DNA of 64,000 bases from Candidatus Jorgensenbacteria bacterium. GTDB taxonomy: Bacteria > Patescibacteriota > Minisyncoccia > UBA6257 > GWB1-50-10. Positions 4,769-56,310 of the stretch are shown in pieces. The translations under genes were made by a program, and so were the position numbers. The notes beneath the pieces were generated by a model. The model was not told the DNA's origin. It searched no databases and saw nothing but the letters and a program-made list of their open reading frames with translations. Positions within the stretch are counted from its first letter, which is position 1; every line of letters begins with the position of its first letter. The DNA is taken from the NCBI GenBank assembly GCA_043807585.1, contig JAZDFV010000002.1:25581-89580 (forward strand), read 5' to 3'.

Positions 4769-4803
4769 CCGGAGGCCTCACCTCCTCAGGAGGTGAGGCC
4801 TCC
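4769..4803 (+). terminator. GC-rich hairpin (ggaggcctcacctcc / ggaggtgaggcctcc) after the PAP2 gene
   Basis: It is a perfect 15-bp inverted repeat that belongs to the recurring CCTCC-loop-GGAGG hairpin family. Confidence 0.6.
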
Positions 4804-4822
4804 CCAAATTGAACCAAATAGA

Positions 4823-5101
4823 TTACACAAAAAACGACAGTAGCTTGAGTTTTATTTTTTCTACCTCGCTCGCGTCCAAATTGTCCGAAGCGTTGAGTTT
4901 CAGATCGCGGATGGCCCGCGCGGCCTCTTCTTTTGAAATACCCTCGGAGAGATAGCGGCCGAAAACCGCCTTCACATACTCCTGCTCCTCTGGGGAGAGC
5001 GCCGAAATCTGCCGGAGGAGCATATCAAGCTTCTCTCTTGAGAGGTGTTTCCCGCCGGAAGGCGAGAGAAAGTCAAAGATACCCATATCAATAAATATCA
5101 A
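4823..5101 (-). CDS. hypothetical small protein (92 aa), AT-rich
   Basis: It is an ORF in the AT-rich islet with no recognised domain. Confidence 0.4.
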   Translation of the reverse strand: MIFIDMGIFDFLSPSGGKHLSREKLDMLLRQISALSPEEQEYVKAVFGRYLSEGISKEEAARAIRDLKLNASDNLDASEVEKIKLKLLSFFV

Positions 5102-5141
5102 GTATTAAGAATCAAATGTCAAATATGTTGTAGGCATACTT

Positions 5142-5165
5142 TCTTATTCGCGCGAATAAGAAAGT
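5142..5165. promoter_or_regulatory. 24-bp perfect palindrome tttcttattcgcgcgaataagaaa (core ATTCGCGCGAAT)
   Basis: The palindrome is perfect, and the same core recurs at 19558 and 32978 upstream of genes. Confidence 0.5.
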
Positions 5166-5234
5166 ACGAGATTTTGAGAGATTGAGAAGCATAAAATAGG
5201 TAAATGCCGAACCACAAGTTTTTTCTTTGGATCG

Positions 5235-6281
5235 CTAAGCGTTCCTTTTATCCCGCTTAGCGGGAATGGCGGCAAATTCTTTCAAATATTTTTTGACCTT
5301 TCCAATAAATAAATCAATTAATAGTATAAAAATTATTAAAAGCAAAATTACCAATAGTTTATGCGTTACCCAAAAGGCATTGATATATATCCAAATATCA
5401 TAGAAAAATCTGTCAAACCAATTGTAATCAGGCGAGGGGAATCTTATTACTTCTTTATTAGCTTTATCGCCATTAACATCTACTTTGATATAGTGATAAA
5501 AATAATGGTCGGGGTCCGTTCCCATTAGTTCAGAACCAGCGCCGCCGGTAATAATATAATTTATTCCATTTTTTGTTTCATCGAAATAAGCATGAATATG
5601 GGAAGCAAAAACAGTATCAACTTTATACTTTTCCATTAAATTAATAAATTCTTGAGCATTCTGTTTGTCGGATAGGGAATGATTGGTGTTGGGACGGGGG
5701 TCAAAAGCTGGCACATGTAAAAAGACAAATTTATGTTGATAGTTTCTCTGCAATTGTTCCTCCAGCCATTTCATCTGCACCGCATCAATTCTTGTTTCAT
5801 TAGCATCGTCTAAGACAACGAATAAAGAATTGCCATAATCAAATGAATAATAAAATTTGCCAAAAATATCAAAATAGTTTTCTGCCCCGCCCTCTCGGAT
5901 ATCGTGATTGCCAACCGCGACCAAAAACGGTGTCTGCTCGTTTTTTATCATATTGTAAAAGATCCGGTATTTTGCTTTTTCACCGTCATACACCAAATCC
6001 CCAACATCAATGGCAAAAGTATAGTGGTTGTTGTCAATATCTTTCAGAATTTTACTAAATATTTTGAAGCTATTTTTATTATCGCCCATCACGGCAAAGC
6101 TGAAGTTGTCTGAAGGCGCGGAAGAATGAATTTTATCAATTTGTTTTTGATTATAATTGCCCGGGCCAACCGGCAAATAATCGTTTAGGCCAATGGTTAT
6201 TAGCAAAATAGCAATGACAACAACGGCAGCAATATGACGCTTTTTAGAGAAATATTTTTTAAAATTATCTTTTAATGACAT
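5235..6281 (-). CDS. membrane-anchored calcineurin-like metallophosphoesterase
   Basis: Phosphoesterase motifs GD, GDLVYDG, GNHD and ASHIH are present, with N- and C-terminal hydrophobic segments. The start was chosen at the internal Met (MSLKDN) because the longer ORF runs into the tRNA-like fragment. Confidence 0.7.
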   Translation of the reverse strand: MSLKDNFKKYFSKKRHIAAVVVIAILLITIGLNDYLPVGPGNYNQKQIDKIHSSAPSDNFSFAVMGDNKNSFKIFSKILKDIDNNHYTFAIDVGDLVYDGEKAKYRIFYNMIKNEQTPFLVAVGNHDIREGGAENYFDIFGKFYYSFDYGNSLFVVLDDANETRIDAVQMKWLEEQLQRNYQHKFVFLHVPAFDPRPNTNHSLSDKQNAQEFINLMEKYKVDTVFASHIHAYFDETKNGINYIITGGAGSELMGTDPDHYFYHYIKVDVNGDKANKEVIRFPSPDYNWFDRFFYDIWIYINAFWVTHKLLVILLLIIFILLIDLFIGKVKKYLKEFAAIPAKRDKRNA

Positions 6282-6317
6282 ATGTTTGTGGGACGCTGAG
6301 CGTCCCGATAACAACGC

Positions 6318-6354
6318 TAAGCGTTGTGCCCGGGGTGGGGGTCGAACCCACACG
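6318..6354 (-). other. degenerate tRNA 3'-half-like fragment (T-arm plus acceptor 3' strand)
   Basis: The minus-strand sequence GTGGG-TTCGACC-CCCAC-CCCGGGC-A looks like a tRNA 3' half. It shares gaacccacacgg with the fragment at 9046-9115. Confidence 0.5.
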
Positions 6355-6363
6355 GCCTTGCGA

Positions 6364-6630
6364 TCACAGGAGTTCTTCAAGCCGTTCGCGTTCCTCGTTG
6401 ATCAGTTCTTGCCATGTGAACGTGCTTTTCCCGCACAGAAATTCCCGCTTCATTTTTTGGTTGTTGTAGAAGAAATTTATCCACGCCCTGCCTTCGGTCG
6501 CGAGATTCACAAAATTTGCTAGCTCTTGGTCGTTCGCCCTGCTGAACAATCTCATCAATTCGCCTCGCTCGATCCCTCCAAGGGTCGAATTTCTTACAAT
6601 GGTTTCAAGTTTGTATAAGTTCGATTCCAT
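6364..6630 (-). CDS. hypothetical protein (88 aa), translationally coupled to the upstream large gene
   Basis: The ORF lies 5 nt after the stop of the 6636..9044 gene, and the region is AT-rich. Confidence 0.4.
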   Translation of the reverse strand: MESNLYKLETIVRNSTLGGIERGELMRLFSRANDQELANFVNLATEGRAWINFFYNNQKMKREFLCGKSTFTWQELINEERERLEELL

Positions 6631-6635
6631 GTTGG

Positions 6636-9044
6636 TTATTTTTCCGGCGATAGGATTTTGTTGTAGGCCTTGAGGAAAAGCACGCCAAGGTTTTTGTCCG
6701 GAGCGACGTAATTTTTGAAATCCTTGTTATTTTTGAAGAGGTTGCCCGCTTTAGCCCAAAGTTCCTGCCATTTTATATTCTTGCCGCTTCGTATCTCATT
6801 GTTGAGCATCTTGAGAAGCTGGTCATTCACCAATTTTACCCCAGTTCCTTTTGTCGAGATGATGTGAGCGTTCGGCGCGCGTTCGAGAACCGCTGCCATG
6901 TTGTTATACCCGCCGCACGAGCCGAGCGATACTATTTTTGCGATTGGAGGTATTCTCTCGATTGTTTTATGGGCGTGATAGCTGTGCCCGCGATGAACTA
7001 CCACGATTGTTTCTATATGTTTCTGCGCGAGAATCTCGTCTATCTTTTTTGGACCCTCGTCCTCATAACTTGGACGGTTCGCATATATTTCGACTTTCTT
7101 TCCGATTCCTTGGGAAACGATCCGCACGTATTCTTTTTTTGCTTCTATGCGCCATTCCGGACTGCCGGCATATTGTGAAAGAAAATTTTTGAACGACCCA
7201 TCGCCGTCTTTGTCGTTATAGAAAAAATATTGCTGGATGTTCGTTCCGTCTTTGTTGAAGAGGTCTTTTGAGGGGATTTCAGTTAGGTTCTGAAGTTTAT
7301 ATTTCTCCGACATTTCGTGTATCCATTCCTTGTTTGCTATAGCTTTCTCGCCAAACATGCCGCTCAAAAGTCCGTAGAGCGTTTTTCCCTCTTCGCTGTT
7401 TTCATTTTTTGCGCGTTCGTATTCGTCTTTGATTTTATCCTGAAACACTTCCAATATTTTTTTGTCTTTCACTATACCAAAGATTTCAGCGACGGTTGTG
7501 GCTTGCATGAGCTTATCTCCCTCTTTCTCTATATTAGAAATAGATCTTTCGAGGACGGTTTTACGCGCGGTTTCGTCCATAGTGTTCAAAAAATCATCCA
7601 ATCTGTTAAAACTAGCGCAGAGTTTTATCAATGTTCTGAATTTATTGTAGCCGTTTTGCTCAAGCAATTGATCGCCGGAGACGTGTTCACTTTTCATTTT
7701 CTCCACAAATCTATTGAACAAACCATTGAACGATGAGGTAAACAACTCCTCATCCCCATAGGTCATGAGAAGGTAGAGTTTCTGTGAAGAATGGTTTTCA
7801 ACCGATTTGAAACGCACGGGGTCCGTTGCTTCATGCAGGTCATTTATTTGCCTTACTTCTTTCAGCACCATCGTCTTTAGATATTTATCAGCTATTTCAC
7901 TTCCAAGGTGGTCCGGACGACTTTTAATCTCCATTAGTTTTTCTAGGAATTTTCCATCGTTTTTTGCGATATTGGCCGTTTCCTCAAGGCTCGTATTTTT
8001 TCTTACGATTTCATCGGTTAGTGCACACATTTTTTCTTGAATGTCGGGCGCGTATGTTGATTTTTTAATTTTTGACAATGTCTGTATGAACGGATCTTTG
8101 CTTTCGTTAAGTATTTTATTCACTTCTCTCTCAATGCCTTTTTCATTATCGATTGTATTGTACGGATCTATAATACCTTCTGGAAATTGCTTGATTGCAT
8201 GCTCAATCATTTCCCTTGCATCGGTAGCAGACGCAAGATTATCTGCGTGTCTTAAAACTGCCCACGGTTCAGTGAAAGCCACTCTCTCAACTATTTTCTT
8301 TCCCCACGGTGTGTTTACAAAATTCTCTGCATGGAAAATTATTGTTGGTGCAGTATTTATTTGCGTTGCCGCTTTTTCTAGAATTTTTTGCGCGTATGGT
8401 TGTGTAATAAAACGGTCTGCAAATTCAAAGGCACCCCAAGGGTCGAAATCTGCCGCTTTTTCTATTATTTTTTCTGCGTAGGGCTCATCTATAAAACGGT
8501 CGGCGAACTCAAGTACTAAGGAATGATTTGTTTTGATAGCTTGCTCTACAACTCGTTTGAGAATATCTTTTCCATTTGGGATGTTTTTATAGTTTTCCGC
8601 ATAACGGAGTGCGCCATAACATCTAGAATAGGGAGGGGGTTGGAATCGCTGCGGATCTAGCATCCCTGCACTCTCATTAACAGCTCCCTCAATGATTTTG
8701 TATGCCCATGGTTTGTACTCGTAGCTATCCGCGACCTCAAGCGCATCAATTGGTTGAAGTCTTGCTAATTCTGCGTACGCTTGTTCATCCAATGAACGTT
8801 TTCCTTCAATCTCCTGTTCGTGGAATCTTGTATATTTGCTGTGCGCAGATTCTGGCCGATCCCTCATCTCCACGATCGAGAGGGTGGTAATGAGGGTAAG
8901 CGCTTTAATGACCAAGCCGCTTTTTTCACGGATTCGCCCGAGTATCGTTTTCTCTTCGGTCTCCAACTTCTCAACGCCCTTTTCCGCGGCGTTTTCTTGA
9001 ATTTCGTTCCCTTCCGGTGAATCGTTTTGTTTTTCGAAATCCAT
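6636..9044 (-). CDS. large helical-repeat (HEAT/TPR-like) protein with a C-terminal putative CHAT (caspase-like) peptidase domain
   Basis: About 38-aa repeats (ADRFI..PYA.KI.EKAA.FDPWGAFE) are followed by a His/Cys dyad-like VVVHRGHSYH ... IVSLGSCGGYN. The start was chosen at MDFEKQN because the longer ORF overlaps tRNA-Leu. Confidence 0.6.
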   Translation of the reverse strand: MDFEKQNDSPEGNEIQENAAEKGVEKLETEEKTILGRIREKSGLVIKALTLITTLSIVEMRDRPESAHSKYTRFHEQEIEGKRSLDEQAYAELARLQPIDALEVADSYEYKPWAYKIIEGAVNESAGMLDPQRFQPPPYSRCYGALRYAENYKNIPNGKDILKRVVEQAIKTNHSLVLEFADRFIDEPYAEKIIEKAADFDPWGAFEFADRFITQPYAQKILEKAATQINTAPTIIFHAENFVNTPWGKKIVERVAFTEPWAVLRHADNLASATDAREMIEHAIKQFPEGIIDPYNTIDNEKGIEREVNKILNESKDPFIQTLSKIKKSTYAPDIQEKMCALTDEIVRKNTSLEETANIAKNDGKFLEKLMEIKSRPDHLGSEIADKYLKTMVLKEVRQINDLHEATDPVRFKSVENHSSQKLYLLMTYGDEELFTSSFNGLFNRFVEKMKSEHVSGDQLLEQNGYNKFRTLIKLCASFNRLDDFLNTMDETARKTVLERSISNIEKEGDKLMQATTVAEIFGIVKDKKILEVFQDKIKDEYERAKNENSEEGKTLYGLLSGMFGEKAIANKEWIHEMSEKYKLQNLTEIPSKDLFNKDGTNIQQYFFYNDKDGDGSFKNFLSQYAGSPEWRIEAKKEYVRIVSQGIGKKVEIYANRPSYEDEGPKKIDEILAQKHIETIVVVHRGHSYHAHKTIERIPPIAKIVSLGSCGGYNNMAAVLERAPNAHIISTKGTGVKLVNDQLLKMLNNEIRSGKNIKWQELWAKAGNLFKNNKDFKNYVAPDKNLGVLFLKAYNKILSPEK

Positions 9045-9045
9045 A

Positions 9046-9115
9046 TTTTGTGTGGTGCCCGAGGTGGGAATCCCAGCCTTCGCCTGACTACGGACGGGCA
9101 GGGAACCCACACGGT
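9046..9115 (-). other. tRNA-like 3'-end fragment abutting tRNA-Leu
   Basis: The minus-strand sequence ends ...GATTCCCACCTCGGGCACCA, which resembles the tRNA-Leu 3' end GATTCCCTCCTCGCCCA. It shares ccgtgtgggttc with the 6318-6354 fragment. Confidence 0.45.
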
Positions 9116-9197
9116 GTGGGCGAGGAGGGAATCGAACCCTCATGGGTTGCCCCACACGATTTTGAGTCGTGCGCGTATACCGTTCCGCCACTCGCCC
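9116..9197 (-). tRNA. tRNA-Leu (anticodon CAA)
   Basis: Manual fold: acceptor GGGCGAG/CTCGCCC, anticodon stem CACGA/TCGTG with loop CTCAAAA, a long variable arm and T-arm GAGGG-TTCGATT-CCCTC. Confidence 0.85.
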
Positions 9198-9343
9198 TCT
9201 CCTTTCGCGTTGATATTACCACAAAAATTCGGTACAGTAAATTAAACTATGGCTCGCGTAACCCTTCGACAGGCTCAGGGTTTCCAATCACAGAATCAAG
9301 TTTGTTCGGTATTTATGTGGAGAATCCAAATTTTATACAAAAC

Positions 9344-11816: not shown

Positions 11817-13156
11817 CCTCTCGCGCATCATTCACCCTCACCTGCCCGCTTCGCCTTGCGAAGCAAGGCGGGCGGGTTGAGCCCCGCAAAGGTTTTACCT
11901 TGATAGAGCTCCTCGTGGTCATCGCCATTCTTGGCACCATCGCCGTGGCCGTGGTTTTAGTCATCAACCCCGCCGAGCTTATCAAGCAGGCGCGGGACTC
12001 GACCCGCCTCGAGGACCTTGGAACCATCAATCGTATCCTCGGTCTCTTCCAGGCCGACCAAGTGGATGCCTTCATGGGCACCTCCTCAATCGTATACGTC
12101 TCGGTCCCCGATACCTCCGCCACCTGCGTGAACCTCGGCCTCCCGACGCTTCCCAGTGGTTGGAGCTACGCCTGTGCCCCCACGAGCACCCTTCAGAAGG
12201 CGGACGGCACGGGCTGGATTCCTGTGAATCTCACCGCCTTCTCCGCTGGTTCCCCCCTCTCCAAGTTCCCCGTGGACCCCGTGAACGCTACCTCCACGGG
12301 CGAATACTATGCCTACGTCACTGGCTCATCTTGGGAACTGACGGCTTTTCTCAAGTCCGACAAATACAAAATGGGCGGTGGGAGTGATAAAGCCAGCAAA
12401 GACAGTGGCCAACACCCCGAGCTCTATGAACTTGGCTCCACTCTCAAACTCACCCCGGTCACAAGAGACCCTTCTTTGGTCGGGTACTGGAAGCTTGATG
12501 AAACGAGCGGTACCCTCTATGACACATCTGGCCACGGGAACAACGGCACGCAATCGGGGGGTGTAACCTACGGCGCGACCGGCAAGGTGGGGAACGCTTT
12601 GAGTTTTGATGGGGTGGATGATTATGTTTCTACGATCCTCTCGCCGCCATCAACAGTTCCTGTGTCGGTTCTTCTCTGGATTTACCCCACTGACAATACT
12701 GTGTCTCATTGTGTTGTTTCTCGTCCCCCCGCTGGTTGGTTTCCCCTCTATGGGGTTTGTCCATATTTATCAACAAATGAAGTATATAACTATACTAACG
12801 GATTATACGGTCTATATCTACAGACGACGGAATCCTACGGCGCTGCTATGCGTGTTACTTCAAACGTTTCACCGCCCAACAACACTTGGAGTCAGGTGGG
12901 ATTTACCTATGACGGGAGTAGTTTCACCTTGTTTTACAACGGTCAAGCTACTGGGAAAACGCTTTGGTGCAAGACAGGGGGATGCAATGAGAATCAAAAC
13001 TATTTGAGTATCTCAGGTTCTCAGACACATTCTTTGGGTAAAGCAAATGATGCCTGGAAGTCAAACCTTTTCCAAGGCAGTATCGACGACATCCGTATCT
13101 ATAATCGTGCCCTCTCCGCGGCTGAAATTAGTGCTATTTACAGTGCCACGCAATAG
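11813..13156 (+). CDS. type IV pilin-like protein with C-terminal LamG/ConA-like lectin domain (copy 1)
   Basis: It has a prepilin leader (RKGFTLIELLVVIAIL) and a C-terminal LamG-like region (FDGVDDYV...IDDIRIYNRALSAAEISAIY). ATGA overlaps the parB stop. Confidence 0.75.
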   Translation: MTSRASFTLTCPLRLAKQGGRVEPRKGFTLIELLVVIAILGTIAVAVVLVINPAELIKQARDSTRLEDLGTINRILGLFQADQVDAFMGTSSIVYVSVPDTSATCVNLGLPTLPSGWSYACAPTSTLQKADGTGWIPVNLTAFSAGSPLSKFPVDPVNATSTGEYYAYVTGSSWELTAFLKSDKYKMGGGSDKASKDSGQHPELYELGSTLKLTPVTRDPSLVGYWKLDETSGTLYDTSGHGNNGTQSGGVTYGATGKVGNALSFDGVDDYVSTILSPPSTVPVSVLLWIYPTDNTVSHCVVSRPPAGWFPLYGVCPYLSTNEVYNYTNGLYGLYLQTTESYGAAMRVTSNVSPPNNTWSQVGFTYDGSSFTLFYNGQATGKTLWCKTGGCNENQNYLSISGSQTHSLGKANDAWKSNLFQGSIDDIRIYNRALSAAEISAIYSATQ

Positions 13157-13178
13157 CAAATTAATGACATCGTAAAGA

Positions 13179-14384
13179 ATGACCTCTTGCGCATCATTCA
13201 CCCTCATAGAGCTCCTCGTCGTGATAGCGATCCTGGGGGTCTTGGCCACAGTCGTCATCCTCGTCATCAACCCCGCCGAGCTCATCAAGCAGGCGCGGGA
13301 CTCGACCCGCCTCGAGGACCTTGGAACCATCAATCGTATCCTCGGTCTCTTCCAGGCCGACCAAGTGGATGCCTTCATGGGCACCTCCTCAATCGTATAC
13401 GCCTCGGTCCCCGATACCTCCGCCACCTGCGTGAACCTCGGCCTCCCGACGCTTCCCAGTGGTTGGAGCTACGCCTGTGCCCCCACGAGCACCCTTCAGA
13501 AGGCGGACGGCACGGGCTGGATTCCTGTGAATCTTACCGCCTTCTCCGCTGGTTCCCCCCTCTCCAAGTTCCCCGTGGACCCCGTGAACACCACCTCCAC
13601 GAGCCAGTACTACACCTATGTAACGGGGGGGAGTTGGGAGCTGACCGCAGTCACCGAATCCTCAAAGTATGCTTCCAAATCCTCATCTGATGGCGGGGTA
13701 GACCCCGCCATGCTTGAGGTAGGGTCCGATCCTGGACTCGATCTCTCGCCCTTCGCCCATGGGATGGTGGGGTATTGGATGTTTGATGAGACGGGCACGA
13801 CCGCCAATGACAGCTCGGGTTATGCAAACACTGGCACCATGTATTCATCTTCAACTATCTCCGACTTACATACTTCTTCTAATTGTAAAGCTGGAAGTTG
13901 TGTGAGTCTTGATGGGACAGATGATTATGTGAGAATTCCAACGCTAGGGCCTTATGGTAGCTTCACATACCTTGCATGGATAAAATCAACAAATATTAAC
14001 AGTCCTTCTACACAACCTATTATTCATGGTCCCTCTGAAGGATGGAATAGTTTTAATATTAACTCCTCGAAATTAAGATATGGTAGTTATGGTGGTGTTG
14101 GGTGCGGCGGTGCAAACTCATTCAGCAATACCTCTCTTGCATCTAATACATCTTATTTTGTCGCAATGACCTATAACAGGAACGGACAATGGCAATCCTT
14201 TATTAATGGAGCTCTTGACAGTAGTACCAACCATAATTGTTCTCCAGGGTCAGGAGTATACGATATCGGCTCTGCAAGTAGCTACTCAGCACAAAAGTTT
14301 TATGGGATCATCGACGACGTCCGCATCTACAACAGGGCACTATCGGCATCAGAAATTAGCGCTATTTACAATGCAACGCAATAA
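13179..14384 (+). CDS. type IV pilin-like protein with divergent C-terminal LamG-like domain (copy 2)
   Basis: The N-terminal roughly 140 codons are near-identical to copy 1 at nucleotide level, and the C-terminal half is different. Confidence 0.75.
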   Translation: MTSCASFTLIELLVVIAILGVLATVVILVINPAELIKQARDSTRLEDLGTINRILGLFQADQVDAFMGTSSIVYASVPDTSATCVNLGLPTLPSGWSYACAPTSTLQKADGTGWIPVNLTAFSAGSPLSKFPVDPVNTTSTSQYYTYVTGGSWELTAVTESSKYASKSSSDGGVDPAMLEVGSDPGLDLSPFAHGMVGYWMFDETGTTANDSSGYANTGTMYSSSTISDLHTSSNCKAGSCVSLDGTDDYVRIPTLGPYGSFTYLAWIKSTNINSPSTQPIIHGPSEGWNSFNINSSKLRYGSYGGVGCGGANSFSNTSLASNTSYFVAMTYNRNGQWQSFINGALDSSTNHNCSPGSGVYDIGSASSYSAQKFYGIIDDVRIYNRALSASEISAIYNATQ

Positions 14385-14427
14385 AGCATATCCGCATCTA
14401 CCAAAGCCCTATCTGGCACCACGAAAT

Positions 14428-14466
14428 AAACCCCCACACCCATGCATAGGTGTGGGGGTAAAATTT
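14428..14466 (+). terminator. rho-independent terminator-like hairpin
   Basis: The stem-loop is cccccacaccc-atgcata-gggtgtggggg followed by aaaatttt. Confidence 0.7.
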
Positions 14467-14510
14467 TCAATATTGATTTGATGAAACCGCCCTCAGTCAC
14501 CGGTGAGAGT

Positions 14511-19591: not shown

Positions 19592-20470
19592 ATGGCGGTT
19601 GCAATATTGGTGCCGCTCACCGCTTTTACGTACACAAGTCCAGGAAAGCCCGCGGGGTTTGTGAACGATTTTGCTGGAATGCTCGCCCCGAACGAAGTCG
19701 AAGTGCTTGAGGCGAAACTCACGGCGTTCGAGAAAAGCACCGGCAATGAAATTTCCATTGTCACTACACCGTCGCTTGGAGGCGATACGATAGAGAATTT
19801 TGCGGTGCAACTGTTTCAAGAGTGGGGCATTGGCAAGAAAGACAAAGACAACGGCGCGCTCGTTTTAGTTTCGCGCGATGACCATAAAATACGCATTGAG
19901 GTGGGGTATGGTTTGGAACCGGTGTTGACCGACGCGCAGAGTTACTGGCTCATCCAGGACATCATCACGCCGGCGTTCCGCGACGGAAATTACTATGCGG
20001 GATTGGATGGCGCGGCTGACAAGATCATCGCGGCGGTGGGAGGCCTGCCTGCGCAGGCAGGAGAAGTCATTCCCTCGGCGGAAGTGTCCGCGGGAGACCA
20101 AGGTGGTCGGATAAACATTGATTGGTTCTGGCTCGTCTTTTTCCTGCCCCTCTGGCTCGGGAGCGTTTTGGCGCGCTCCAAATCATGGTGGGCGGGCGGG
20201 GTTATCGGGGGCATTGCCGGTGTCGTGATCGGGCTCTTTCAGGGGTTTCTCTACACGGGCGTGATTGCGGTGGGGCTGCTCATTCCGATTGGTTTGTTTT
20301 TTGACTACGTCGTTTCCAAAAATTACGGAAAGTTCAAATCGAAGGGCAAAATGCCTCCGTGGTGGATCGGCGGTGCTGGCTTCGGCGGCGGCGGCTCTTC
20401 GTCTAGCTCGGGATTCGGCGGCTTCGGCGGCGGCAGTTCGGGTGGGGGCGGTTCCAGCGGGAGTTGGTGA
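19592..20470 (+). CDS. TPM-domain (YgcG/TLP18.3-like) protein with C-terminal TM and Gly/Ser-rich tail
   Basis: It has a TPM domain sequence and is paired with lemA. The start is placed at the signal-peptide-like Met, and an alternative start lies at 19538. Confidence 0.8.
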   Translation: MAVAILVPLTAFTYTSPGKPAGFVNDFAGMLAPNEVEVLEAKLTAFEKSTGNEISIVTTPSLGGDTIENFAVQLFQEWGIGKKDKDNGALVLVSRDDHKIRIEVGYGLEPVLTDAQSYWLIQDIITPAFRDGNYYAGLDGAADKIIAAVGGLPAQAGEVIPSAEVSAGDQGGRINIDWFWLVFFLPLWLGSVLARSKSWWAGGVIGGIAGVVIGLFQGFLYTGVIAVGLLIPIGLFFDYVVSKNYGKFKSKGKMPPWWIGGAGFGGGGSSSSSGFGGFGGGSSGGGGSSGSW

Positions 20471-20508
20471 TTTCTAGTTTTAGGATTCAGCGTTGTAGTG
20501 GTATATCG

Positions 20509-20546
20509 TTATCACATTAAATCGCGACCGCGATTTAATGTGATAA
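20509..20546. repeat. 38-bp near-perfect palindrome ttatcacattaaatcgcgaccgcgatttaatgtgataa
   Basis: It is palindromic and has a near-identical copy at 21153-21190, on the other side of the PaaX-like gene. Confidence 0.8.
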
Positions 20547-20570
20547 ATGCCGAGCGACTAGATCTTATTT

Positions 20571-21152
20571 TTAGAGGTGGAAATGGTGTTTTAACTTCTC
20601 CGCACCTTCGAAATTGCCGACCTCTAAAATGAGAACATTATTCCGATCAATCTCAAAAACACTGCAGATAAAATCTATTTCATTCTCACACTCATAAGGG
20701 GTAATAAACACGCTCTTTTGGAGCGGATAAAATCCCAAATCTTTTACTTTAGCTCGTAATGCATTTCTCGCATTCTTTTGGTAGTCGGGTATATCGAATG
20801 TGACAAGTCGCCATTTCCCGTCCCATGACCGCTCTTCCAATTTCATTTGGTCGAGATCGTAGGTGAGTATCTTATTCTTTCCCAGTTTGGTGAGCGTGAT
20901 TTTTATCTTTCCGTCCGGCAATTGAACATAGTCAATGAGTTCCCTGTCCTGGAGCCTTTTGAGGTCCTGAAGAAACCTTTCTTTCCGTATTTTCTTGTTC
21001 TTGAGATATTGTTTTATCAGTTTCCTTACTATAAGTGCGCCGCTTGTCGGTGAAATGGTGCCGATGAGGAGAACGCCGCCGGCCGCGAGAACGGTTTTTA
21101 GAACGTGATAGGGTTTGGAATTTTTCCTCATCTTTGCGACCATAGCTTTCAT
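20571..21152 (-). CDS. membrane-anchored PaaX-like protein (C-terminal Cas2-fold PaaX_C-like region), AT-rich
   Basis: The C-terminal region WDGKWRLVTFDIPDYQK..R..LR..VKDLGFYPLQKSVFITP resembles a PaaX C-domain. One N-terminal TM segment is predicted. Confidence 0.5.
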   Translation of the reverse strand: MKAMVAKMRKNSKPYHVLKTVLAAGGVLLIGTISPTSGALIVRKLIKQYLKNKKIRKERFLQDLKRLQDRELIDYVQLPDGKIKITLTKLGKNKILTYDLDQMKLEERSWDGKWRLVTFDIPDYQKNARNALRAKVKDLGFYPLQKSVFITPYECENEIDFICSVFEIDRNNVLILEVGNFEGAEKLKHHFHL

Positions 21153-21190
21153 TATATCACATTAACTCTCGGTCGCGATTTAATGTGATA
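21153..21190. repeat. second copy of the 38-bp palindrome (tatatcacattaactctcggtcgcgatttaatgtgata)
   Basis: See 20509-20546. Confidence 0.8.
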
Positions 21191-21257
21191 CAACAGGATT
21201 TGAAGAGGGGTTGAGGAACCGGTGAGGTTTGCGCTACAATGACGTTTGTGCGAACAA

Positions 21258-21342
21258 GGAGGGGTGCGCGAGTGGTTTAAACGGCAGTCCTGGAAAGACT
21301 GTGTACCGCAAGGTACCGCGAGTTCGAATCTCGCCCCCTCCG
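21258..21342 (+). tRNA. tRNA-Ser (anticodon GGA)
   Basis: Manual fold: acceptor GGAGGGG/CCCCTCC, anticodon stem CAGTC/GACTG with loop CTGGAAA, a long variable arm and a T-arm around GTTCGAATC. Confidence 0.8.
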
Positions 21343-21465
21343 CTTTGTGCGGGAGAAAGCGAAAAAAGTTGTAGGAGAATCCCTCCCCCTCCGCTACAAC
21401 AATGCAGTGCCTCTTTGCGTGGCGCCGCGCTGGCGCTATGATAGAGAGGATTTTCTGAATCACGC

Positions 21466-21813
21466 ATGCCCCATAAATTTCTCCATTGGGCGCCGCGCAT
21501 CCTCTCCATCCTTTTTGTCGCGTTCCTTTCTCTCTTTGCGCTGGATACCTTTGACACATATTCGGGGTGGGCTGCCGTTCTGCCTCTCCTTATGCACCTT
21601 ATTCCATCCTTCGTTTTGCTTGTGGTAATCATCATTGCCTGGAAATACGATTTGGTTGGCGCCATTCTTTTTCTCGTTTTCGCCGCGCTTTATGTGGGTA
21701 TGGCAGGATTGGACCGTCCCTGGAGTTGGTACTTGTTAATATCGGGTCCGGCTGCCCTCGTCGGCATTTTCTTCCTTTTGAACTGGTTTTATAAAAGAAA
21801 GAACCAACCGTGA
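21466..21813 (+). CDS. small hydrophobic membrane protein (115 aa)
   Basis: It contains multiple predicted TM helices. Confidence 0.5.
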   Translation: MPHKFLHWAPRILSILFVAFLSLFALDTFDTYSGWAAVLPLLMHLIPSFVLLVVIIIAWKYDLVGAILFLVFAALYVGMAGLDRPWSWYLLISGPAALVGIFFLLNWFYKRKNQP

Positions 21814-22307
21814 ATTTGCCGCCAAAGAAAAATAGTATAATCCTTAAAGGTCGATGTACTTCATTAACCTCATTATAAAAATATGGTAAAAGGAAACTTT
21901 CTTGGTGCCGCGATTGTTGCAATAATCTACACGATCTATATTTTAATGAACCCCCTTCCAACAAAATGGCAGATGGTGCTAGCGTTGGTGGTTCTTAATG
22001 CTTTGACTATCGTGTTGATGGCTTTTGCATTCAAAGAGTAAAAAAGAGTAATAAGAATTTACCGCCAAAGAAAAACTTGACCCATTCGATAAACTCAGGG
22101 TCAATGCTGAGCAAAGTTGAAGCATTGAAATCAATAAGTAATTTATAGCAATATGCGAAATATGCGGAAAAATTGGCCCTTGGGATTTTTAGGGTTCCTA
22201 TTTTTGCTCGGTATCCCGGGAATATTAACTCAAGATTGGCTTGATGTGGTCTGGCTCGTATGGGTTGTTTGGTTTATTTATTTTATTCCGGAGAAAAAAT
22301 AATTAGC

Positions 22308-22766
22308 ATGGACAACAAAACAATCATTCTCGCGGTTGTTGCGGTTGTGGTTATCGTCGGTGTATATTTTCTCTTTGGGAACAATAATAAAAATATGACA
22401 CAAGATAACTCACTTCAGGCAAGCGAATTCACATTACTGGACGGATTGAAGATAAACGACCTCGTGGTAGGTGCCGGCGCCGAGGCGAAAGTTGGGCAAA
22501 CGGTTACCGTGAACTACGTGGGTACCCTCGTGGACGGCACAAAGTTTGACAGCTCCTACGACCGCGGCCAGCCGTTCTCGTTCTCCTTGGGCGCGGGGCA
22601 GGTCATTAAGGGATGGGATGAGGGTGTGGCTGGGATGAAGGTGGGCGGCAAGCGGCAACTCACCATTCCGCCGGAACTTGGATACGGGAGCGCGGGTGCC
22701 GGAGGTGGCCTAATCCCCCAGAACGCCACTTTAATTTTTGAGGTGGAGCTTTTGGGGGTTCAGTAA
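22308..22766 (+). CDS. FKBP-type peptidyl-prolyl cis-trans isomerase with N-terminal membrane anchor
   Basis: An FKBP domain is present ([51 protein letters not shown]). Confidence 0.85.
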
Positions 22767-30866: not shown

Positions 30867-31090
30867 AAGATCCCGCGCAGCGGGATAAAGAATTATGAAC
30901 AAAGAGATCATCTACTGTGAGCAGTGCTATCAAAGCGAGGTGACTTAAATAAAACGCTATGACATGTCATAGCGCCATACCATGGTTATAGCACCGAGAG
31001 AATCTAAGAAAAGTTAGGATATGACACAAGAGACCAGAACCTACCAGAACTGTCCCGCTACGCGGGATCTCGCGAAGCGAGACAAACACT

Positions 31091-32890
31091 ATGTCTGAAT
31101 CAGAAACAATAGTTTGTCAGAATTGTCATAGTTCCTTCGTCATTGAATCGGAGGATTTTACGTTCTACGAGAAAATAAAAGTCCCGCCGCCGACGTGGTG
31201 CCCGGAGTGCGACAGTGCAAAGAGAATGACTTGGAGAAACGAGAGATCTTTGTATTGGCGCGATTGCGGTTTGTGCGGTAAGAAAACACTCTCGATGTAT
31301 TCAAAAGAAAATCCTTTTACTGTTTATTGTCATAAATGTTGGATATCGGATAAGTGGGACTCATTAGTATTCGGGAGAGATTATGATTTTCAGAAAGATT
31401 TTTTCACGCAATTTTCAGAACTCCAAAAAAGCGTACCCCGCGCCTCGGTTCTCCAATATGGGACCAGTGTAAATTGCGAATTTACAAACTACACCAGAAA
31501 CACAAAAAATGTCCTCCTAGCCTATTCGGTTTCTACCGGTGAAAATATATATTATTCATTCACTGTAGATTGGTCTAAAGACGCGTTGGATTCTTTAATG
31601 TTGAAGAATTCCGAATTGATATTTGAAGGATTTAATTCGGATCATTGTTATAATTCTCAATTTCTCGTAGATTGCCGCGATTGCACCGAATCATCGTATT
31701 TGTATGATTGTGTGAACTGCCAGAATTGTTTTATGTCGGTGAACCTTAGAAACAAACAGTTCGTTTTTTATGGAAGACAGCTTTCGAAAGAAGAATATAG
31801 CAAAGCAATTTTAGAAATTGATATCGGAAGTTTTGAGACGAGGGGAAGATTAAAAGAAGAATTTCATAATGTTATTTTGCAAACAATTCATAAGTATGGA
31901 GATGTAGTTAAGGTTGTTAACTGCACCGGCAACTATCTTTCGAATTGCAAAAACGTGAAAAATTCATATAGCGTGTATGATTCCGAGAACGTAAGAAACA
32001 CCATTCGCGCCTTGAAAGCGAGAGACATCAGGAGTGTTTTTAGCTGCGGAGAAGGGAGCGAACTTATTTATAGCGGGATTGTCGGTGGCAAAACCAGTTC
32101 TAATATAAAATTTTTTGCAAGTGCGGATGTGCTACGCGAATCGCAATACACCGATTGGTGTTTAAGTTCATCAAATCTCTTCGGCTGCATCGGCCTTCGC
32201 AACAAGCAGTACTGCATCCTTAACAAGCAATACACGAAGGAGGAATATGAAGCCCTTGTACCCCGCATCATCGACCACATGAACACCATGCCCTATGTAG
32301 ATACCAAGGGCAGGATATACAAATATGGCGAGTTCTTCCCCCCGGAATTGTCTCCCTTCGCCTACAACGAAACCATCGCACAGGAGTATTTCCCCCTGAC
32401 CAAGGATAAAGCTATTCAACAGGGCTACCGCTGGAGGGACGCGGATACGAGAGATTACAAAATAACCAAGAGACCGGAGGATCTCCCCGACCACATCAAA
32501 GATGTAGAGGATGCAATATTGAAAGAAACCATCCAATGCATGCACCACCCTTCGGCAGGCTCAGGGCAGGCCGCCTGCAATCACCAATGCACCACCGCCT
32601 TCAAGGTTATCCCAGAAGAACTTGCCTTCTACCGCAGAATGAACCTCCCGCTCCCACGTCTTTGCCCCAACTGCCGGCACTACGAACGCCTAAAGCAGCG
32701 GAATCCCCTGAAGCTCTGGCACCGCACCTGCCAGTGTGCGGGAGGAAAAAGCGAGAACGGTGTCTACGAGAACACCATAACCCACCCACACGGCACCGGC
32801 CACTGCCTAAACGAATTCGAGACCAGTTACGCTCCAGAGAGAAAGGAAATCGTGTACTGCGAGAGTTGTTATAATACTGAAGTGGTATGA
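31091..32890 (+). CDS. Cys-rich protein (599 aa) with homologous N- and C-terminal double zinc-ribbon modules flanking internal Cys/Asn-rich repeats
   Basis: Multiple CxxC pairs are present. The termini are related (F.I..E..FY......P..CP.C ... LW.R.C), and there is an internal repeat (CFMSVNLRNKQFVFYGRQLSKEEYSKA / CIGLRNKQYCILNKQYTKEEYEAL). Confidence 0.7.
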   Translation: MSESETIVCQNCHSSFVIESEDFTFYEKIKVPPPTWCPECDSAKRMTWRNERSLYWRDCGLCGKKTLSMYSKENPFTVYCHKCWISDKWDSLVFGRDYDFQKDFFTQFSELQKSVPRASVLQYGTSVNCEFTNYTRNTKNVLLAYSVSTGENIYYSFTVDWSKDALDSLMLKNSELIFEGFNSDHCYNSQFLVDCRDCTESSYLYDCVNCQNCFMSVNLRNKQFVFYGRQLSKEEYSKAILEIDIGSFETRGRLKEEFHNVILQTIHKYGDVVKVVNCTGNYLSNCKNVKNSYSVYDSENVRNTIRALKARDIRSVFSCGEGSELIYSGIVGGKTSSNIKFFASADVLRESQYTDWCLSSSNLFGCIGLRNKQYCILNKQYTKEEYEALVPRIIDHMNTMPYVDTKGRIYKYGEFFPPELSPFAYNETIAQEYFPLTKDKAIQQGYRWRDADTRDYKITKRPEDLPDHIKDVEDAILKETIQCMHHPSAGSGQAACNHQCTTAFKVIPEELAFYRRMNLPLPRLCPNCRHYERLKQRNPLKLWHRTCQCAGGKSENGVYENTITHPHGTGHCLNEFETSYAPERKEIVYCESCYNTEVV

Positions 32891-45330: not shown

Positions 45331-46266
45331 ATGACGCGTGAGAACGCACCGCGCTTCGGAGTCGCAGGGAATCCGCCGAACTTTTGGAAGTCAAAATATA
45401 AATCTGACCGGCTAAATGCGGTAGAGTGGCTTCAAGGGATTGGTCTCAATGCCCTGGAATTACAGGCAACCTATGGCATCAAGATGCCGAGAGAGCGGGC
45501 GCTTCAATTCAGAGAGAAAGCGGAGAAGTGTGGGATATCTCTATCGTTGCATGCACCATATTTTGTTAATTTAGCGAGCAAAGATGCAGGTGTGGTTAAT
45601 CGTTCCATCCATCGGGTTCTTGATGCATTTCAGCTTGCAAGATGGTTGGGGACAGACCGAATCGTTTTTCACCCCGGTGGATTCGCCGGTGACCGAAATA
45701 GAGCTGTAGAGCAATTAATTTCGGGTGTCAAAATAATACAGAATCAGTTACCCGACGATGGCATCTTTTTAAGGGCTGAAGTGGGGGGTAAGATTAATCA
45801 GTTGGGCTCGCTGGACGAGATTATCACCATCTGCAAGGAAACGAGCATCGTAAAACCATGCATTGATTTCGCCCATCTTCATGCGCGTGAACATGGCTCT
45901 TTGATAAGTACGGAGGATTTTCGAAGAGTCTTCAGAAGGATTGAGGGTGATCTGGGTTCTGAGGTCTTAGAATTTTTACACTGCCACGTCTATCCTGTTG
46001 ACTTCAATAATTCGGGTGAGAAGTCCCACAAAAAATTCACCGATCGGAGACACACCGAACCACAACTTACTTTCTTCAGTAAATCTAACCCCCCAATTCA
46101 GGACAGGTACTATCCGCGCTTCGAACCATTTCTTGATGCCGTCATTGAATTTAACATGCAACCCACGATTATCTGCGAGGCAAAGGATTCTCAAGATGAG
46201 GGTGCCTTATTGATGAAAGCTTACTATACTAAAAAGACCAGTCAGATGGCACAATCTCTTTCATAG
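45331..46266 (+). CDS. xylose-isomerase-like TIM-barrel protein (AP endonuclease family 2/Nfo-like)
   Basis: The pattern GVAGNPP...LSLHAPYFVNLAS...VFHPG resembles the endonuclease IV fold. Confidence 0.55.
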   Translation: MTRENAPRFGVAGNPPNFWKSKYKSDRLNAVEWLQGIGLNALELQATYGIKMPRERALQFREKAEKCGISLSLHAPYFVNLASKDAGVVNRSIHRVLDAFQLARWLGTDRIVFHPGGFAGDRNRAVEQLISGVKIIQNQLPDDGIFLRAEVGGKINQLGSLDEIITICKETSIVKPCIDFAHLHAREHGSLISTEDFRRVFRRIEGDLGSEVLEFLHCHVYPVDFNNSGEKSHKKFTDRRHTEPQLTFFSKSNPPIQDRYYPRFEPFLDAVIEFNMQPTIICEAKDSQDEGALLMKAYYTKKTSQMAQSLS

Positions 46267-46277
46267 GTGTAATAACC

Positions 46278-55878: not shown

Positions 55879-56310
55879 AAAATCACGTGCAAAAAAGTGA
55901 AGATGACCCAGGTCTGGAAAACAGACCGCGTGGTGCCGGTCACGGTACTCAAGGTGGAACCATCCGCAAGCGAAGGGATATTCGACGCGCTCAAAGAAGG
56001 GGCGCGTGTTCGTGTTTCCGGCGTGAGCAAAGGAAAGGGATTCCAAGGCGTGGTGAAGCGGCACGGGTTCCACGGCGGCCCCAAGTCCCACGGCCAGAAG
56101 GATCGTCTCCGCGCACCGGGCTCGATCGGTCCCACCGCCCCGCAGCGGGTGCTCCCCGGGCGGAAGATGGCAGGCCACATGGGGGCGCGGAAAGTCACGG
56201 TGCGGAATCTTGTGGTGGCGGAGGTGCACCCCGAGGAACGGTTGGTGTTCGTGCGTGGAGCGGTGCCGGGGGCGCGCGGTACTAAAGTAGAAATGAGAAC
56301 CGCAGAGTAG
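55876..56310 (+). CDS. rplC: 50S ribosomal protein L3 (short form)
   Basis: It is an L3 sequence shortened to 144 aa (KKVKMTQVW...[14 protein letters not shown]). Confidence 0.9.

What the first reader, a model, noticed from the sequence alone, without database searches (positions are those of the whole stretch)
4800..9200. AT-rich islet at tRNA-Leu encoding a repeat-scaffold protein with a putative CHAT dyad, a membrane metallophosphoesterase and two small proteins, a candidate uncharacterised defence/stress module
The region from 4823 to 9044 is visibly AT-rich against a GC-rich background and lies entirely on the minus strand. It ends at an intact tRNA-Leu (9116-9197), and two degenerate tRNA-3'-end-like copies (9046-9115 and 6318-6354) share the 12-mer gaacccacacgg. 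This is the usual signature of tRNA-targeted integration. The cargo is (i) an 800-aa protein with about 38-aa helical repeats followed by a C-terminal region containing a caspase/CHAT-like His...Cys dyad pattern (VVVHRGHSYH ... IVSLGSCGGYN), (ii) a tightly coupled 88-aa ORF, (iii) a calcineurin-like metallophosphoesterase with TM anchors at both ends, and (iv) a 92-aa ORF. Repeat-scaffold CHAT proteases occur in several conflict systems, and this particular combination with a membrane phosphoesterase is not one I recognise. No integrase is present, so the integration may be old or the islet may be a decayed remnant.
Basis: partly seen in the sequence, partly recalled or inferred. Interest (0 to 1): 0.8.

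Follow-up and report, generated by a model that had tools for sequence, protein, structure and literature searches.

The report
Foreign gene islet at tRNA-Leu
A 4-kb stretch of foreign, AT-rich DNA sits behind a tRNA-Leu gene in a Candidatus Jorgensenbacteria genome; it holds two unrelated cargo units rather than one defence module, and one unit encodes a member of a large unannotated protein family whose end folds like the separase/CHAT (caspase-like) proteases.

Summary
The AT-rich tract and the tRNA-Leu(CAA) are real. The islet runs from about 5102 to 9115, not from 4823. The 92-aa gene has host-like composition and is conserved at this locus in relatives that lack the rest, so it is core.

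Relatives keep the order PAP2, a variable gap of 1-4.3 kb, tRNA-Leu(CAA), parAB. The near-empty sites show this is a hot spot. A 46-nt remnant at 6326-6371 is 44/46 identical to the 3' part of the tRNA-Leu(CAA) of close relatives, which shows recombination at a tRNA.

The cargo is two units. One is an 802-aa protein plus an 88-aa partner. The other is a metallophosphoesterase anchored at both ends. No metallophosphoesterase lies within 3 kb of any of 88 other family genes, and PADLOC finds nothing.

An 88-aa-like ORF directly follows 17 of 88 family genes. It also precedes an unrelated exported protein at the same hot spot.

Verdict: an ordinary islet carrying a new, probably exported, caspase-fold protein family. 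The defence reading is unsupported.

The parts
9116..9197 (-). Intact tRNA-Leu(CAA), the anchor of the hot spot. Its acceptor stem is GGGCGAG/CTCGCCC. Its D, anticodon and T arms are nearly identical to those of relative L022.
   Evidence: ARAGORN; Rfam tRNA, 60.6 bits; table of tRNA-Leu(CAA) genes from relatives.
9046..9115 (-). R1, a degenerate tRNA-Leu(CAA) 3' remnant that abuts the intact tRNA. Its CCA end lies 8 nt before the start codon of the 802-aa gene. Two blocks match R2 (12/12 and 13/14), separated by a 34-nt spacer where R2 has 4 nt.
   Evidence: 19/20 match to the 3' end of the tRNA-Leu(CAA) of relative L025.
6636..9044 (-). Gene for the 802-aa protein (NCBI V1696_00840, annotated hypothetical). 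Residue numbers are those of the 801-aa translation from 9041. Parts: acidic leader, basic motif and one hydrophobic segment (residues 41-59); about six 28-aa helical repeats (about 140-300); a conserved all-helical domain (about 305-582); a C-terminal alpha/beta domain (583-801).
   Evidence: ORF; 100% identical database protein; AlphaFold model, pLDDT 83; alignment A1; hydropathy.
6639..7295 (-). C-terminal caspase-fold domain. The H686 codon is at 6984-6986 and the C709 codon at 6915-6917. D610, D612, G613, N655, H683, R684, G685, S687, G710 and N739 are each conserved in 96-100% of 216 family sequences.
6364..6630 (-). 88-aa ORF, 5 nt after the stop of the 802-aa gene. It belongs to a small unannotated family. 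A member directly follows 17 of 88 testable family genes. Its stop codon lies inside remnant R2.
   Evidence: hhalign to the small ORFs at the hot spot of relatives, probability 88.5%, E 2.7e-6.
6326..6371 (-). R2, a remnant of a tRNA-Leu(CAA) gene. It runs from the 3' strand of the anticodon stem to the discriminator base. It is 44/46 identical to the genes of relatives L036 and L010, and it marks the distal end of the 802-aa/88-aa unit.
   Evidence: nucleotide homology to the related contig L071 ends at 6368.
5235..6281 (-). Calcineurin-like metallophosphoesterase, 348 aa, with a transmembrane segment at each end. The catalytic domain is predicted to face outwards (an inference from charge distribution). 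GC is 0.345. It is an independent cargo unit.
   Evidence: Pfam PF00149, E 3e-12; motifs GD, GD, GNHD, HIH and transmembrane segments 17-35 and 309-327; 346 or more homologues, many 80-89% identical, in unrelated contexts; 83.6% nucleotide identity to L073 over the coding sequence only.
5102..5234 (.). Spacer between the islet and the core gene. It holds a perfect 30-bp palindrome (5137-5166) and a promoter-like site (5122-5094, minus strand) in front of the 92-aa gene. No tRNA remnant was detected here.
4823..5101 (-). 92-aa gene (likely start ATG 5086). It is not part of the islet. It is a host-composition core gene, conserved next to PAP2 or next to tRNA-Leu in relatives. It has a borderline PriCT_1 match.

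Best explanation
The tract 5102-9115 is a composite, horizontally acquired islet in the variable site behind the tRNA-Leu(CAA) that lies next to parAB. The genome is a Candidatus Jorgensenbacteria (Patescibacteria) assembly.

The islet holds two independent cargo units from AT-richer donors.

Unit 1 (6326-9115) is bracketed by two remnants of a tRNA-Leu(CAA) 3' half. It encodes an 802-aa protein and a translationally coupled 88-aa partner.

The 802-aa protein is most likely exported or membrane-anchored through a basic-plus-hydrophobic N-terminal segment. It has a helical repeat scaffold and a conserved helical domain. Its C-terminal domain has the caspase (clan CD) fold, closest to separase and CHAT.

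In that domain an invariant Cys (C709) and a near-invariant His (H686) follow two adjacent hydrophobic strands. I infer that it is a cysteine peptidase acting outside the cytoplasm. The conserved Asp610 and Asp612 after the first strand may form a pocket for a basic residue.

Unit 2 (5235-6281) is an outward-facing metallophosphoesterase tethered at both ends. It probably scavenges phosphate or nucleotides.

The units are neighbours because they landed in the same hot spot, not because they work together.

Shown: foreign composition, near-empty sites in relatives, the tRNA remnant, the fold match, residue conservation, and the recurrence of the 802-aa/88-aa pair.

Inferred: export, peptidase activity, substrate preference, and the role of the 88-aa protein.
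For: Composition:
- GC3 is 0.35-0.44 for the cargo genes against 0.61-0.75 for the host genes.

Hot spot:
- Relatives with ParA 70-78% identical keep rpsF-ssb-rpsR-PAP2, a gap of 1.0-4.3 kb, tRNA-Leu(CAA), parAB.
- L011 has only 185 bp between the 92-aa gene and the tRNA.
- L018 carries a phage Mu Gam-like gene at that position (PF07352, E 1e-31).

tRNA remnant:
- R2 is 44/46 identical to the tRNA-Leu(CAA) genes of relatives, starting at the anticodon stem.

Unit independence:
- L071 shares 83% nucleotide identity with window 7781-6368 (the 3' part of the 802-aa gene plus the 88-aa gene). The homology stops at the junction with R2, and no phosphoesterase follows.
- The phosphoesterase coding sequence is 83.6% identical to L073, where it sits beside a recombinase and a transposase.
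- No phosphoesterase lies within 3 kb of any of 88 family genes.

Fold and conservation:
- The domain model has pLDDT 92.5.
- C709 is present in 216/216 sequences and H686 in 212/216.
- PMC4626109 describes the clan CD dyad as brought together by two hydrophobic strands.

Export:
- A hydrophobic segment after a basic motif is aligned across the family.
- P0018, P0176 and P0180 have canonical N-terminal signal peptides, and some members have lipobox-like LAGC, LGAC or ILGC.
- A periplasmic TPR-CHAT protein has a solved precedent in DdvA (PMC11506125).

Family size:
- 918 clusters at 50% identity and at least 532 metagenome stretches.
Against: - No sequence HMM links the domain to CHAT or to any peptidase family.
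- Foldseek against PDB returns only generic three-layer alpha/beta folds, with TM 0.25-0.39.
- The His is followed by Ser, not by the Gly that I recall as usual in clan CD.
- I could not superpose the dyad, because no model coordinates were available.
- The export call rests on a crude hydropathy rule that scores 65% of family members against 36% of background ORFs. The window's own hydrophobic segment is weak and contains a Lys.
- No integrase is present, and the order of events at the tRNA is unresolved. R1 and R2 are of the GCCCGGG acceptor type, whereas the intact tRNA is of the GGGCGAG type.
- Homologues of the 802-aa gene lie next to parA in six lineages. Part of the arrangement could therefore be old.
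Confidence: 0.6

Rival explanations
1. One reading: the four genes form one uncharacterised defence or stress module. A repeat-scaffold CHAT protease would be the intracellular effector, working with the membrane phosphoesterase and two small proteins.
For: - The fold resembles CHAT and separase.
- CHAT proteases do act in defence systems such as Craspase, SAVED-CHAT and DdvA (literature found; PMC11506125).
- The tract is a foreign islet.
Against: - PADLOC finds no match for any of the four proteins.
- The 92-aa gene is core.
- No phosphoesterase lies within 3 kb of any of 88 family genes, and phosphoesterase homologues stand alone in unrelated contexts.
- The contexts of family genes are mostly housekeeping.
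- The family has export-like N-termini.
- The family is absent from the viral collections searched.
Confidence: 0.05
2. A DdvA-like transmembrane signalling device. The 802-aa protein would be a single-pass membrane protein with its helical repeats and CHAT-like domain outside the cell. Its short acidic N-terminal tail would hold the 88-aa protein in the cytoplasm. Signal-induced self-cleavage followed by intramembrane proteolysis would release the small protein as a regulator.
For: - The architecture parallels DdvA: a cytoplasmic N-terminus, one transmembrane helix, then periplasmic TPR-CHAT (PMC11506125).
- The 88-aa family is tightly coupled to the large gene, with gaps of -25 to +15 nt in 17 loci.
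- The same small family also pairs with a second, unrelated exported protein that has a similar leader.
- The first 82 residues are predicted to be disordered, as expected for a segment that folds on binding.
Against: - The tail is only about 40 residues long, without a zinc-binding anti-sigma motif.
- The 88-aa protein is far smaller than a sigma factor and has no DNA-binding match.
- Some family members have a lipobox or a cleavable signal peptide, which would remove the tail.
- Only about 19% of family genes have the partner.
Confidence: 0.15
3. The C-terminal domain is not a peptidase. It would be a Rossmann-like domain that uses the conserved His, His, Cys and Asp residues to bind a metal or a small ligand, or it would be a non-catalytic binding module. 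The resemblance to separase and CHAT would then be convergence of a common fold.
For: - Foldseek finds only generic folds such as small GTPases and uridine phosphorylase.
- The conserved set H683, H686, C709, D610, D612 could be a metal site.
- No peptidase HMM matches.
Against: - The Cys and His follow adjacent hydrophobic strands, as in clan CD.
- The helical-repeat-plus-domain layout mirrors TPR-CHAT and separase.
Confidence: 0.15
4. The tract is not an islet. It would be ancestral core genome whose low GC reflects the Lys, Asn, Ile and Glu-rich proteins it encodes.
For: - Homologues of the 802-aa gene lie beside parA and tRNA-Leu in L001, L003, L027, L031, L033 and L090.
- In L031 the homologue is also lower in GC than its flanks.
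Against: - GC3, which is largely free of amino-acid bias, is 0.35-0.44 against 0.61-0.75.
- L010, L011, L012 and L018 lack the cargo genes at the same site.
- The tRNA remnant marks a recombination junction.
- Each unit is about 83% identical in nucleotide sequence to contigs with different flanks.
Confidence: 0.05

Closest known systems
Separase (MEROPS C50) and CHAT-domain proteases (Pfam PF12770; Csx29/TPR-CHAT, SAVED-CHAT)
   Same: - An N-terminal helical-repeat scaffold is followed by a C-terminal caspase-fold domain.
- A conserved His and Cys follow adjacent strands.
- The His-to-Cys spacing is short (23 residues). From memory it is about 26 in separase; this was not checked here.
   Different: - No HMM match at all.
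- The domain is smaller, about 219 aa against about 290 aa.
- The motifs are GHS and GSCGG.
- The repeats have a 28-aa period and are not recognised as TPR.
- The protein is probably extracytoplasmic, whereas separase and Craspase are cytoplasmic.
[quoted passage not shown]
   Same: - A short N-terminal part, one hydrophobic segment, then helical repeats and a CHAT-like domain outside the membrane.
- A small partner is encoded beside it.
   Different: - No zinc-binding anti-sigma domain.
- The partner is an 88-aa protein of unknown fold, not an ECF sigma factor.
- No neighbouring CBASS or CRISPR genes.
- Some family members appear to have cleavable signal peptides.
Secreted clan CD peptidases: clostripain-like C11 and gingipains C25
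   Same: - An acidic pocket for Arg or Lys would be a possible parallel to Asp610 and Asp612. This is an inference.
   Different: - No sequence match.
- No pro-domain or Ig-like domains.
- A different overall architecture, with a large helical N-terminal part.
Genomic islands integrated at tRNA genes
   Same: - The tract lies directly 3' of a tRNA.
- A repeat of the tRNA 3' part, starting at the anticodon stem-loop, marks a cargo boundary.
- Composition is foreign.
- Relatives have empty sites.
- Relatives carry different cargo, including a phage gene, at the same site.
   Different: - No integrase or other recombinase.
- Only 4 kb.
- The remnants are of a different acceptor-stem type from the intact tRNA.
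- No remnant at the outer boundary.
- It is therefore a decayed remnant, or it was acquired by recombination between tRNA sequences.
Icc/CpdA-type calcineurin-like metallophosphoesterases (Pfam PF00149)
   Same: - The HMM match is above the curated cut-off.
- The GD, GNHD and HxH metal-binding motifs are present.
- There are weak matches to the CpdA and SpdA models.
   Different: - Scores are far below the equivalog cut-offs (40 bits against 225-400).
- A transmembrane helix at each end predicts an outward-facing enzyme rather than a cytoplasmic cAMP phosphodiesterase.

Membership tests
CHAT domain (Pfam PF12770) / separase C50 | Significant match to the family HMM | tested here: not met
   Pfam scan of the full protein at E<=1. 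Scan of 19 isolated domains at E<=10. NCBIfam. PDB sequence profile search. None gave a CHAT or peptidase match.
CHAT domain (Pfam PF12770) / separase C50 | Caspase-like alpha/beta fold | tested here: met
   [not shown]
CHAT domain (Pfam PF12770) / separase C50 | Conserved His-Cys catalytic pair at the ends of two adjacent hydrophobic strands | tested here: inconclusive
   H686 follows strand 680-684 and C709 follows strand 703-706. C709 is present in 216/216 sequences and H686 in 212/216. No model coordinates were available, so I could not check equivalence to the catalytic residues by superposition.
CHAT domain (Pfam PF12770) / separase C50 | Fusion to an N-terminal helical repeat (TPR-like) scaffold | tested here: met
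   About six helix-turn-helix repeats of about 28 aa plus a helical domain. They are not recognised as TPR, HEAT or ARM by Pfam.
Known anti-phage defence systems (PADLOC-DB v2) | Match of any component to a defence-system model, and a conserved gene set | tested here: not met
   Zero matches for all four proteins at E<=1. The gene set is not conserved.
tRNA-integrated genomic island | Lies directly 3' of a tRNA gene, with a repeat of the tRNA 3' part at a distal boundary | tested here: met
   tRNA-Leu(CAA) at 9116-9197. R2 at 6326-6371 is 44/46 identical to relatives' tRNA-Leu(CAA). R1 lies at 9046-9115. No remnant at the outermost boundary.
tRNA-integrated genomic island | Atypical composition and absence from related genomes | tested here: met
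   GC and GC3. Near-empty or differently filled sites in 11 relatives.
tRNA-integrated genomic island | Integrase or recombinase gene | tested here: not met
   No such ORF in 4800-9200.
Calcineurin-like metallophosphoesterase (PF00149) | HMM match above the gathering score, and the metal-binding motifs | tested here: met
   47.7 bits against a cut-off of 21.5. Motifs GD66, GD94, GNHD124 and HIH228.

The most novel reading that the evidence does not exclude
The 88-aa family and the extended N-terminal leader (an acidic stretch, an EE-x-IL motif, R/K-K-x-G-K, then a hydrophobic segment) may define a Patescibacteria-specific pairing. A small cytoplasmic protein would be dedicated to large exported enzymes of at least two unrelated families, acting as an export or sorting chaperone or as a releasable signalling partner. 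The two families are the separase-like family described here and a 633-669-aa family with a 'GICGN' motif. On this reading the 802-aa family would be an extracellular separase-like protease used by these reduced-genome bacteria at the cell surface.
Probability: 0.15. Interest if true: 0.7.

Novelty: new variant of a known kind. Interest (0 to 1): 0.45.

Why it matters
The islet itself is ordinary.

The useful result is the protein family. It comprises at least 918 clusters at 50% identity and hundreds of metagenome loci. It is common in Patescibacteria and also occurs in contexts that look like other bacteria. It has no annotation in Pfam, NCBIfam, PADLOC or PHROGs. It now has a confident model and a testable active site.

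If it is an exported clan CD peptidase, it adds a surface or secreted protease class to organisms whose biology depends on contact with host cells.

The recurring small partner gene and the shared leader give a concrete hypothesis about export or signalling in these bacteria.

The locus also documents gene flow between Patescibacteria lineages of different GC content, at a tRNA-Leu(CAA) hot spot next to the chromosome partition genes.

Tried and rejected
- Pfam, NCBIfam, PHROGs and PADLOC on all four proteins: only Metallophos was informative.
- Foldseek-PDB on the full model and on the domain model: only generic folds.
- The afdb50 fold library was not available.
- PDB sequence profile searches with A3 and A1: nothing.
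- Pfam on 11 long or odd family members, looking for fused domains: nothing consistent.
- Rfam at a permissive threshold did not recognise the tRNA remnants. Direct alignment to relatives' tRNAs did.
- Search for a third tRNA remnant between the phosphoesterase and the 92-aa gene: chance level.
- I asked whether the 633-669-aa proteins in relatives' gaps belong to the 802-aa family. They do not.
- Viral collections (IMG/VR and GenBank phages): no family member.
- Promoter and terminator scan: not above the shuffled expectation. The only notable site is a promoter-like one in front of the 92-aa gene.
- Literature search for this family in Patescibacteria: nothing found.
- I considered reading the intact tRNA as foreign because of its acceptor stem. 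I rejected this as unproven, because its other arms match relative L022.
- My signal-peptide heuristic has a 36% background rate, so I use it only as weak support.

Full report
**Source.** The large protein is 100% identical to a hypothetical protein of a Candidatus Jorgensenbacteria metagenome-assembled genome, NCBI V1696_00840. The left flank is rpsF-ssb-rpsR-PAP2 and the right flank is parA-parB.

**Observation.**
- GC drops from 0.55-0.62 to 0.33-0.46 between about 5000 and 9000.
- tRNA-Leu(CAA) lies at 9116-9197 on the minus strand.
- Four minus-strand ORFs are present.
- GC3 separates them. Host genes have 0.61-0.75 and the 92-aa gene 0.64. The phosphoesterase has 0.35, the large gene 0.44 and the 88-aa gene 0.58.
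- The foreign tract is therefore about 5102-9115 (GC 0.41), and the 92-aa gene lies outside it.
- The large gene starts at ATG 9044 and encodes 802 aa. Residue numbers below refer to the 801-aa translation from 9041.
- Its repeats have a period of about 28 aa, not 38. A DNA repeat has 84-nt spacing, and the helix pattern agrees.

**Islet or core?** A scan for ParA relatives in one genome per species gave 27 Patescibacteria loci with ParA 53-78% identical.
- Where the contig reaches far enough, the order is conserved: rpsF-ssb-rpsR-PAP2, a gap of 1.0-4.3 kb, tRNA-Leu(CAA) on the opposite strand, then parA-parB.
- L010, L011, L012 and L018 have a 60-67% identical homologue of the 92-aa gene beside PAP2 and none of the other three genes. 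In L011 only 185 bp separate it from the tRNA.
- L018 has a phage Mu Gam-like gene there (PF07352, E 1e-31).
- L016, L019, L020, L021 and L026 have a different cargo.
- Homologues of the large gene (34-49% identical) also lie next to parA in L001, L003, L027, L031 and L033. L090 shows the corresponding gene-tRNA-Leu(CAA)-PAP2 arrangement, although no ParA was detected near it. In L001, L003, L031 and L090 the gene lies on the other side of the tRNA-Leu(CAA).

**tRNA remnants.**
- The stretch 6326-6371 (R2) is 44/46 identical to the 3' part of the tRNA-Leu(CAA) genes of L036 and L010. The match runs from the 3' strand of the anticodon stem to the discriminator base.
- The stop codon of the 88-aa ORF lies inside R2.
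- Nucleotide homology to the related contig L071 ends at 6368, that is at this junction.
- R1 (9046-9115) abuts the intact tRNA. It shares two blocks with R2 (12/12 and 13/14) around a 34-nt spacer.
- Both remnants are of the GCCCGGG acceptor type. The intact tRNA has GGGCGAG, but its other arms are close to those of relative L022. I therefore cannot say which tRNA copy is native.
- No remnant is detectable between the phosphoesterase and the 92-aa gene, and no integrase is present.

**One module or several units?**
- The 88-aa ORF at first had a single homologue (80% identical). Its contig L071 carries the C-terminal 381 aa of a family gene plus the small ORF with the same short spacing. It is 83% identical in nucleotide sequence to the window, and unrelated genes follow.
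- An iterative search over all fetched loci found 88-aa-like ORFs directly downstream (gap -25 to +15 nt) of 17 of 88 testable family genes.
- The phosphoesterase has 346 or more homologues, many 80-89% identical. They sit beside recG with a recombinase and a transposase upstream (L073), beside NUDIX, HAD and an integrase (L076), or after tsf (L157). No family gene is nearby in any of these.
- Homology to L073 covers only the coding sequence.
- No phosphoesterase lies within 3 kb of any of the 88 family genes.
- The islet therefore holds two unrelated units, and the four-gene module is not supported.

**The 802-aa protein.**
- No Pfam, NCBIfam, PHROGs or PADLOC model matches it.
- The first search gave 22 homologues. 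A profile of the C-terminal domain found 918 clusters at 50% identity, 585 of them at E<=1e-30. A metagenome scan found at least 532 stretches.
- The full-length model (pLDDT 83) shows a disordered N-terminus (residues 1-82), helical repeats, a helical domain, and an alpha/beta domain from about residue 585.
- The domain-only model is confident (pLDDT 92.5, pTM 0.90).
- Foldseek gives only generic folds, and no HMM sees CHAT even at E<=10.
- In 216 distinct family sequences C709 is invariant and H686 is present in 212. D610, D612, G613, N655, H683, R684, G685, S687, G710 and N739 are each conserved in 96-100%.
- H686 and C709 follow adjacent hydrophobic strands, which is the arrangement described for the clan CD dyad (PMC4626109).
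- I conclude that the domain is a distant caspase-fold relative nearest to separase and CHAT, and probably a cysteine peptidase. It is not a member of Pfam CHAT by sequence.

**Location of the protein.**
- The alignment shows a basic motif followed by a 12-16-residue hydrophobic segment at about position 40-60 in most members.
- Some members have a canonical N-terminal signal peptide (P0018, P0176, P0180) or a lipobox-like LAGC, LGAC or ILGC.
- My heuristic scores 65% of full-length members against 36% of background ORFs, so this is suggestive only.
- A solved precedent for a periplasmic TPR-CHAT protein is DdvA (PMC11506125).
- The phosphoesterase has one transmembrane helix at each end, which suggests an outward-facing enzyme.

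**The small partner.**
- The 87-92-aa ORFs that precede the 633-669-aa signal-peptide proteins in relatives' gaps are homologous to the 88-aa family (hhalign probability 88.5%, E 2.7e-6 over 84 columns).
- The leaders of the two large families align in register (probability 58%, E 1e-4). This is a lead, not a result.
- The small family has no Pfam match.

**Verdict.** This is a real but ordinary tRNA-linked islet made of two independent cargo units. It is not a defence module. Its interest lies in a large, unannotated, probably exported caspase-fold family and its recurring small partner.

Noticed in passing
L016:6147-8389, L019:5784-8070, L020:7320-9499, L021:1871-4047, L026:7132-9312: In the same PAP2-to-tRNA-Leu gap, five relatives carry an 88-aa-like small ORF followed by a 633-669-aa protein. 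That protein has a canonical signal peptide (..SSAYA|GE), a conserved 'GICGN' cysteine motif and a C-terminal ..KFY or ..NIF ending. It has no Pfam match and is unrelated to the 802-aa family.
   Followed up: partly
L018:8885-9466: A phage Mu Gam-like gene (PF07352, E 1e-31) sits between the 92-aa core gene and tRNA-Leu(CAA) in a relative. This is the position that the islet occupies in the window.
   Followed up: yes
window 20400-22600, 47100-47800; also 12700-14500, 30900-32300, 45700-46300, 54700-56000: The window has further AT-rich patches. Two of them lie next to tRNA-Ser (21258-21343) and tRNA-Pro (47009-47080). They contain low-GC ORFs, for example 20571-21152 (minus strand), 47049-47843 (plus strand) and 55061-55546 (plus strand). 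Small foreign islets beside tRNAs may be a general feature of this genome.
   Followed up: no
window 9116-9197 compared with L001, L003, L004: The acceptor stem of the intact tRNA-Leu(CAA), GGGCGAG/CTCGCCC, is otherwise seen only in the AT-rich lineage that carries the closest homologues of the large gene. All nearer relatives have GCC..GG-type stems. The rest of the tRNA resembles that of relative L022.
   Followed up: partly
L096:2563-6630 (also L097, L098, L099): A 1203-aa family member with an 88-aa-like ORF overlapping its end lies directly downstream of a tRNA-Leu(GAG) in L096 and L098. This is a second case of the pair sitting behind a leucine tRNA, but behind a different isoacceptor. 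L097 and L099 carry the same gene pair.
   Followed up: no
window 5137-5166 and 4771-4803: A perfect 30-bp palindrome with no loop (TACTTTCTTATTCGC/GCGAATAAGAAAGTA) lies between the phosphoesterase and the 92-aa gene. A perfect 16-bp-arm hairpin lies between PAP2 and the 92-aa gene.
   Followed up: no
L007-L009 and about a dozen metagenome loci (e.g. L111, L142, L150): A subclade of the family, apparently outside Patescibacteria, is flanked by a divergent response regulator and histidine kinase and by a downstream ABC exporter. In L007-L009 a TonB-dependent receptor and the F-ATPase operon lie nearby.
   Followed up: no
window 4823-5101: The core 92-aa protein and its homologues give a borderline match to PriCT_1, the primase C-terminal domain (21.0-21.2 bits against a cut-off of 21.1). 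This hints at an old mobile-element origin.
   Followed up: no
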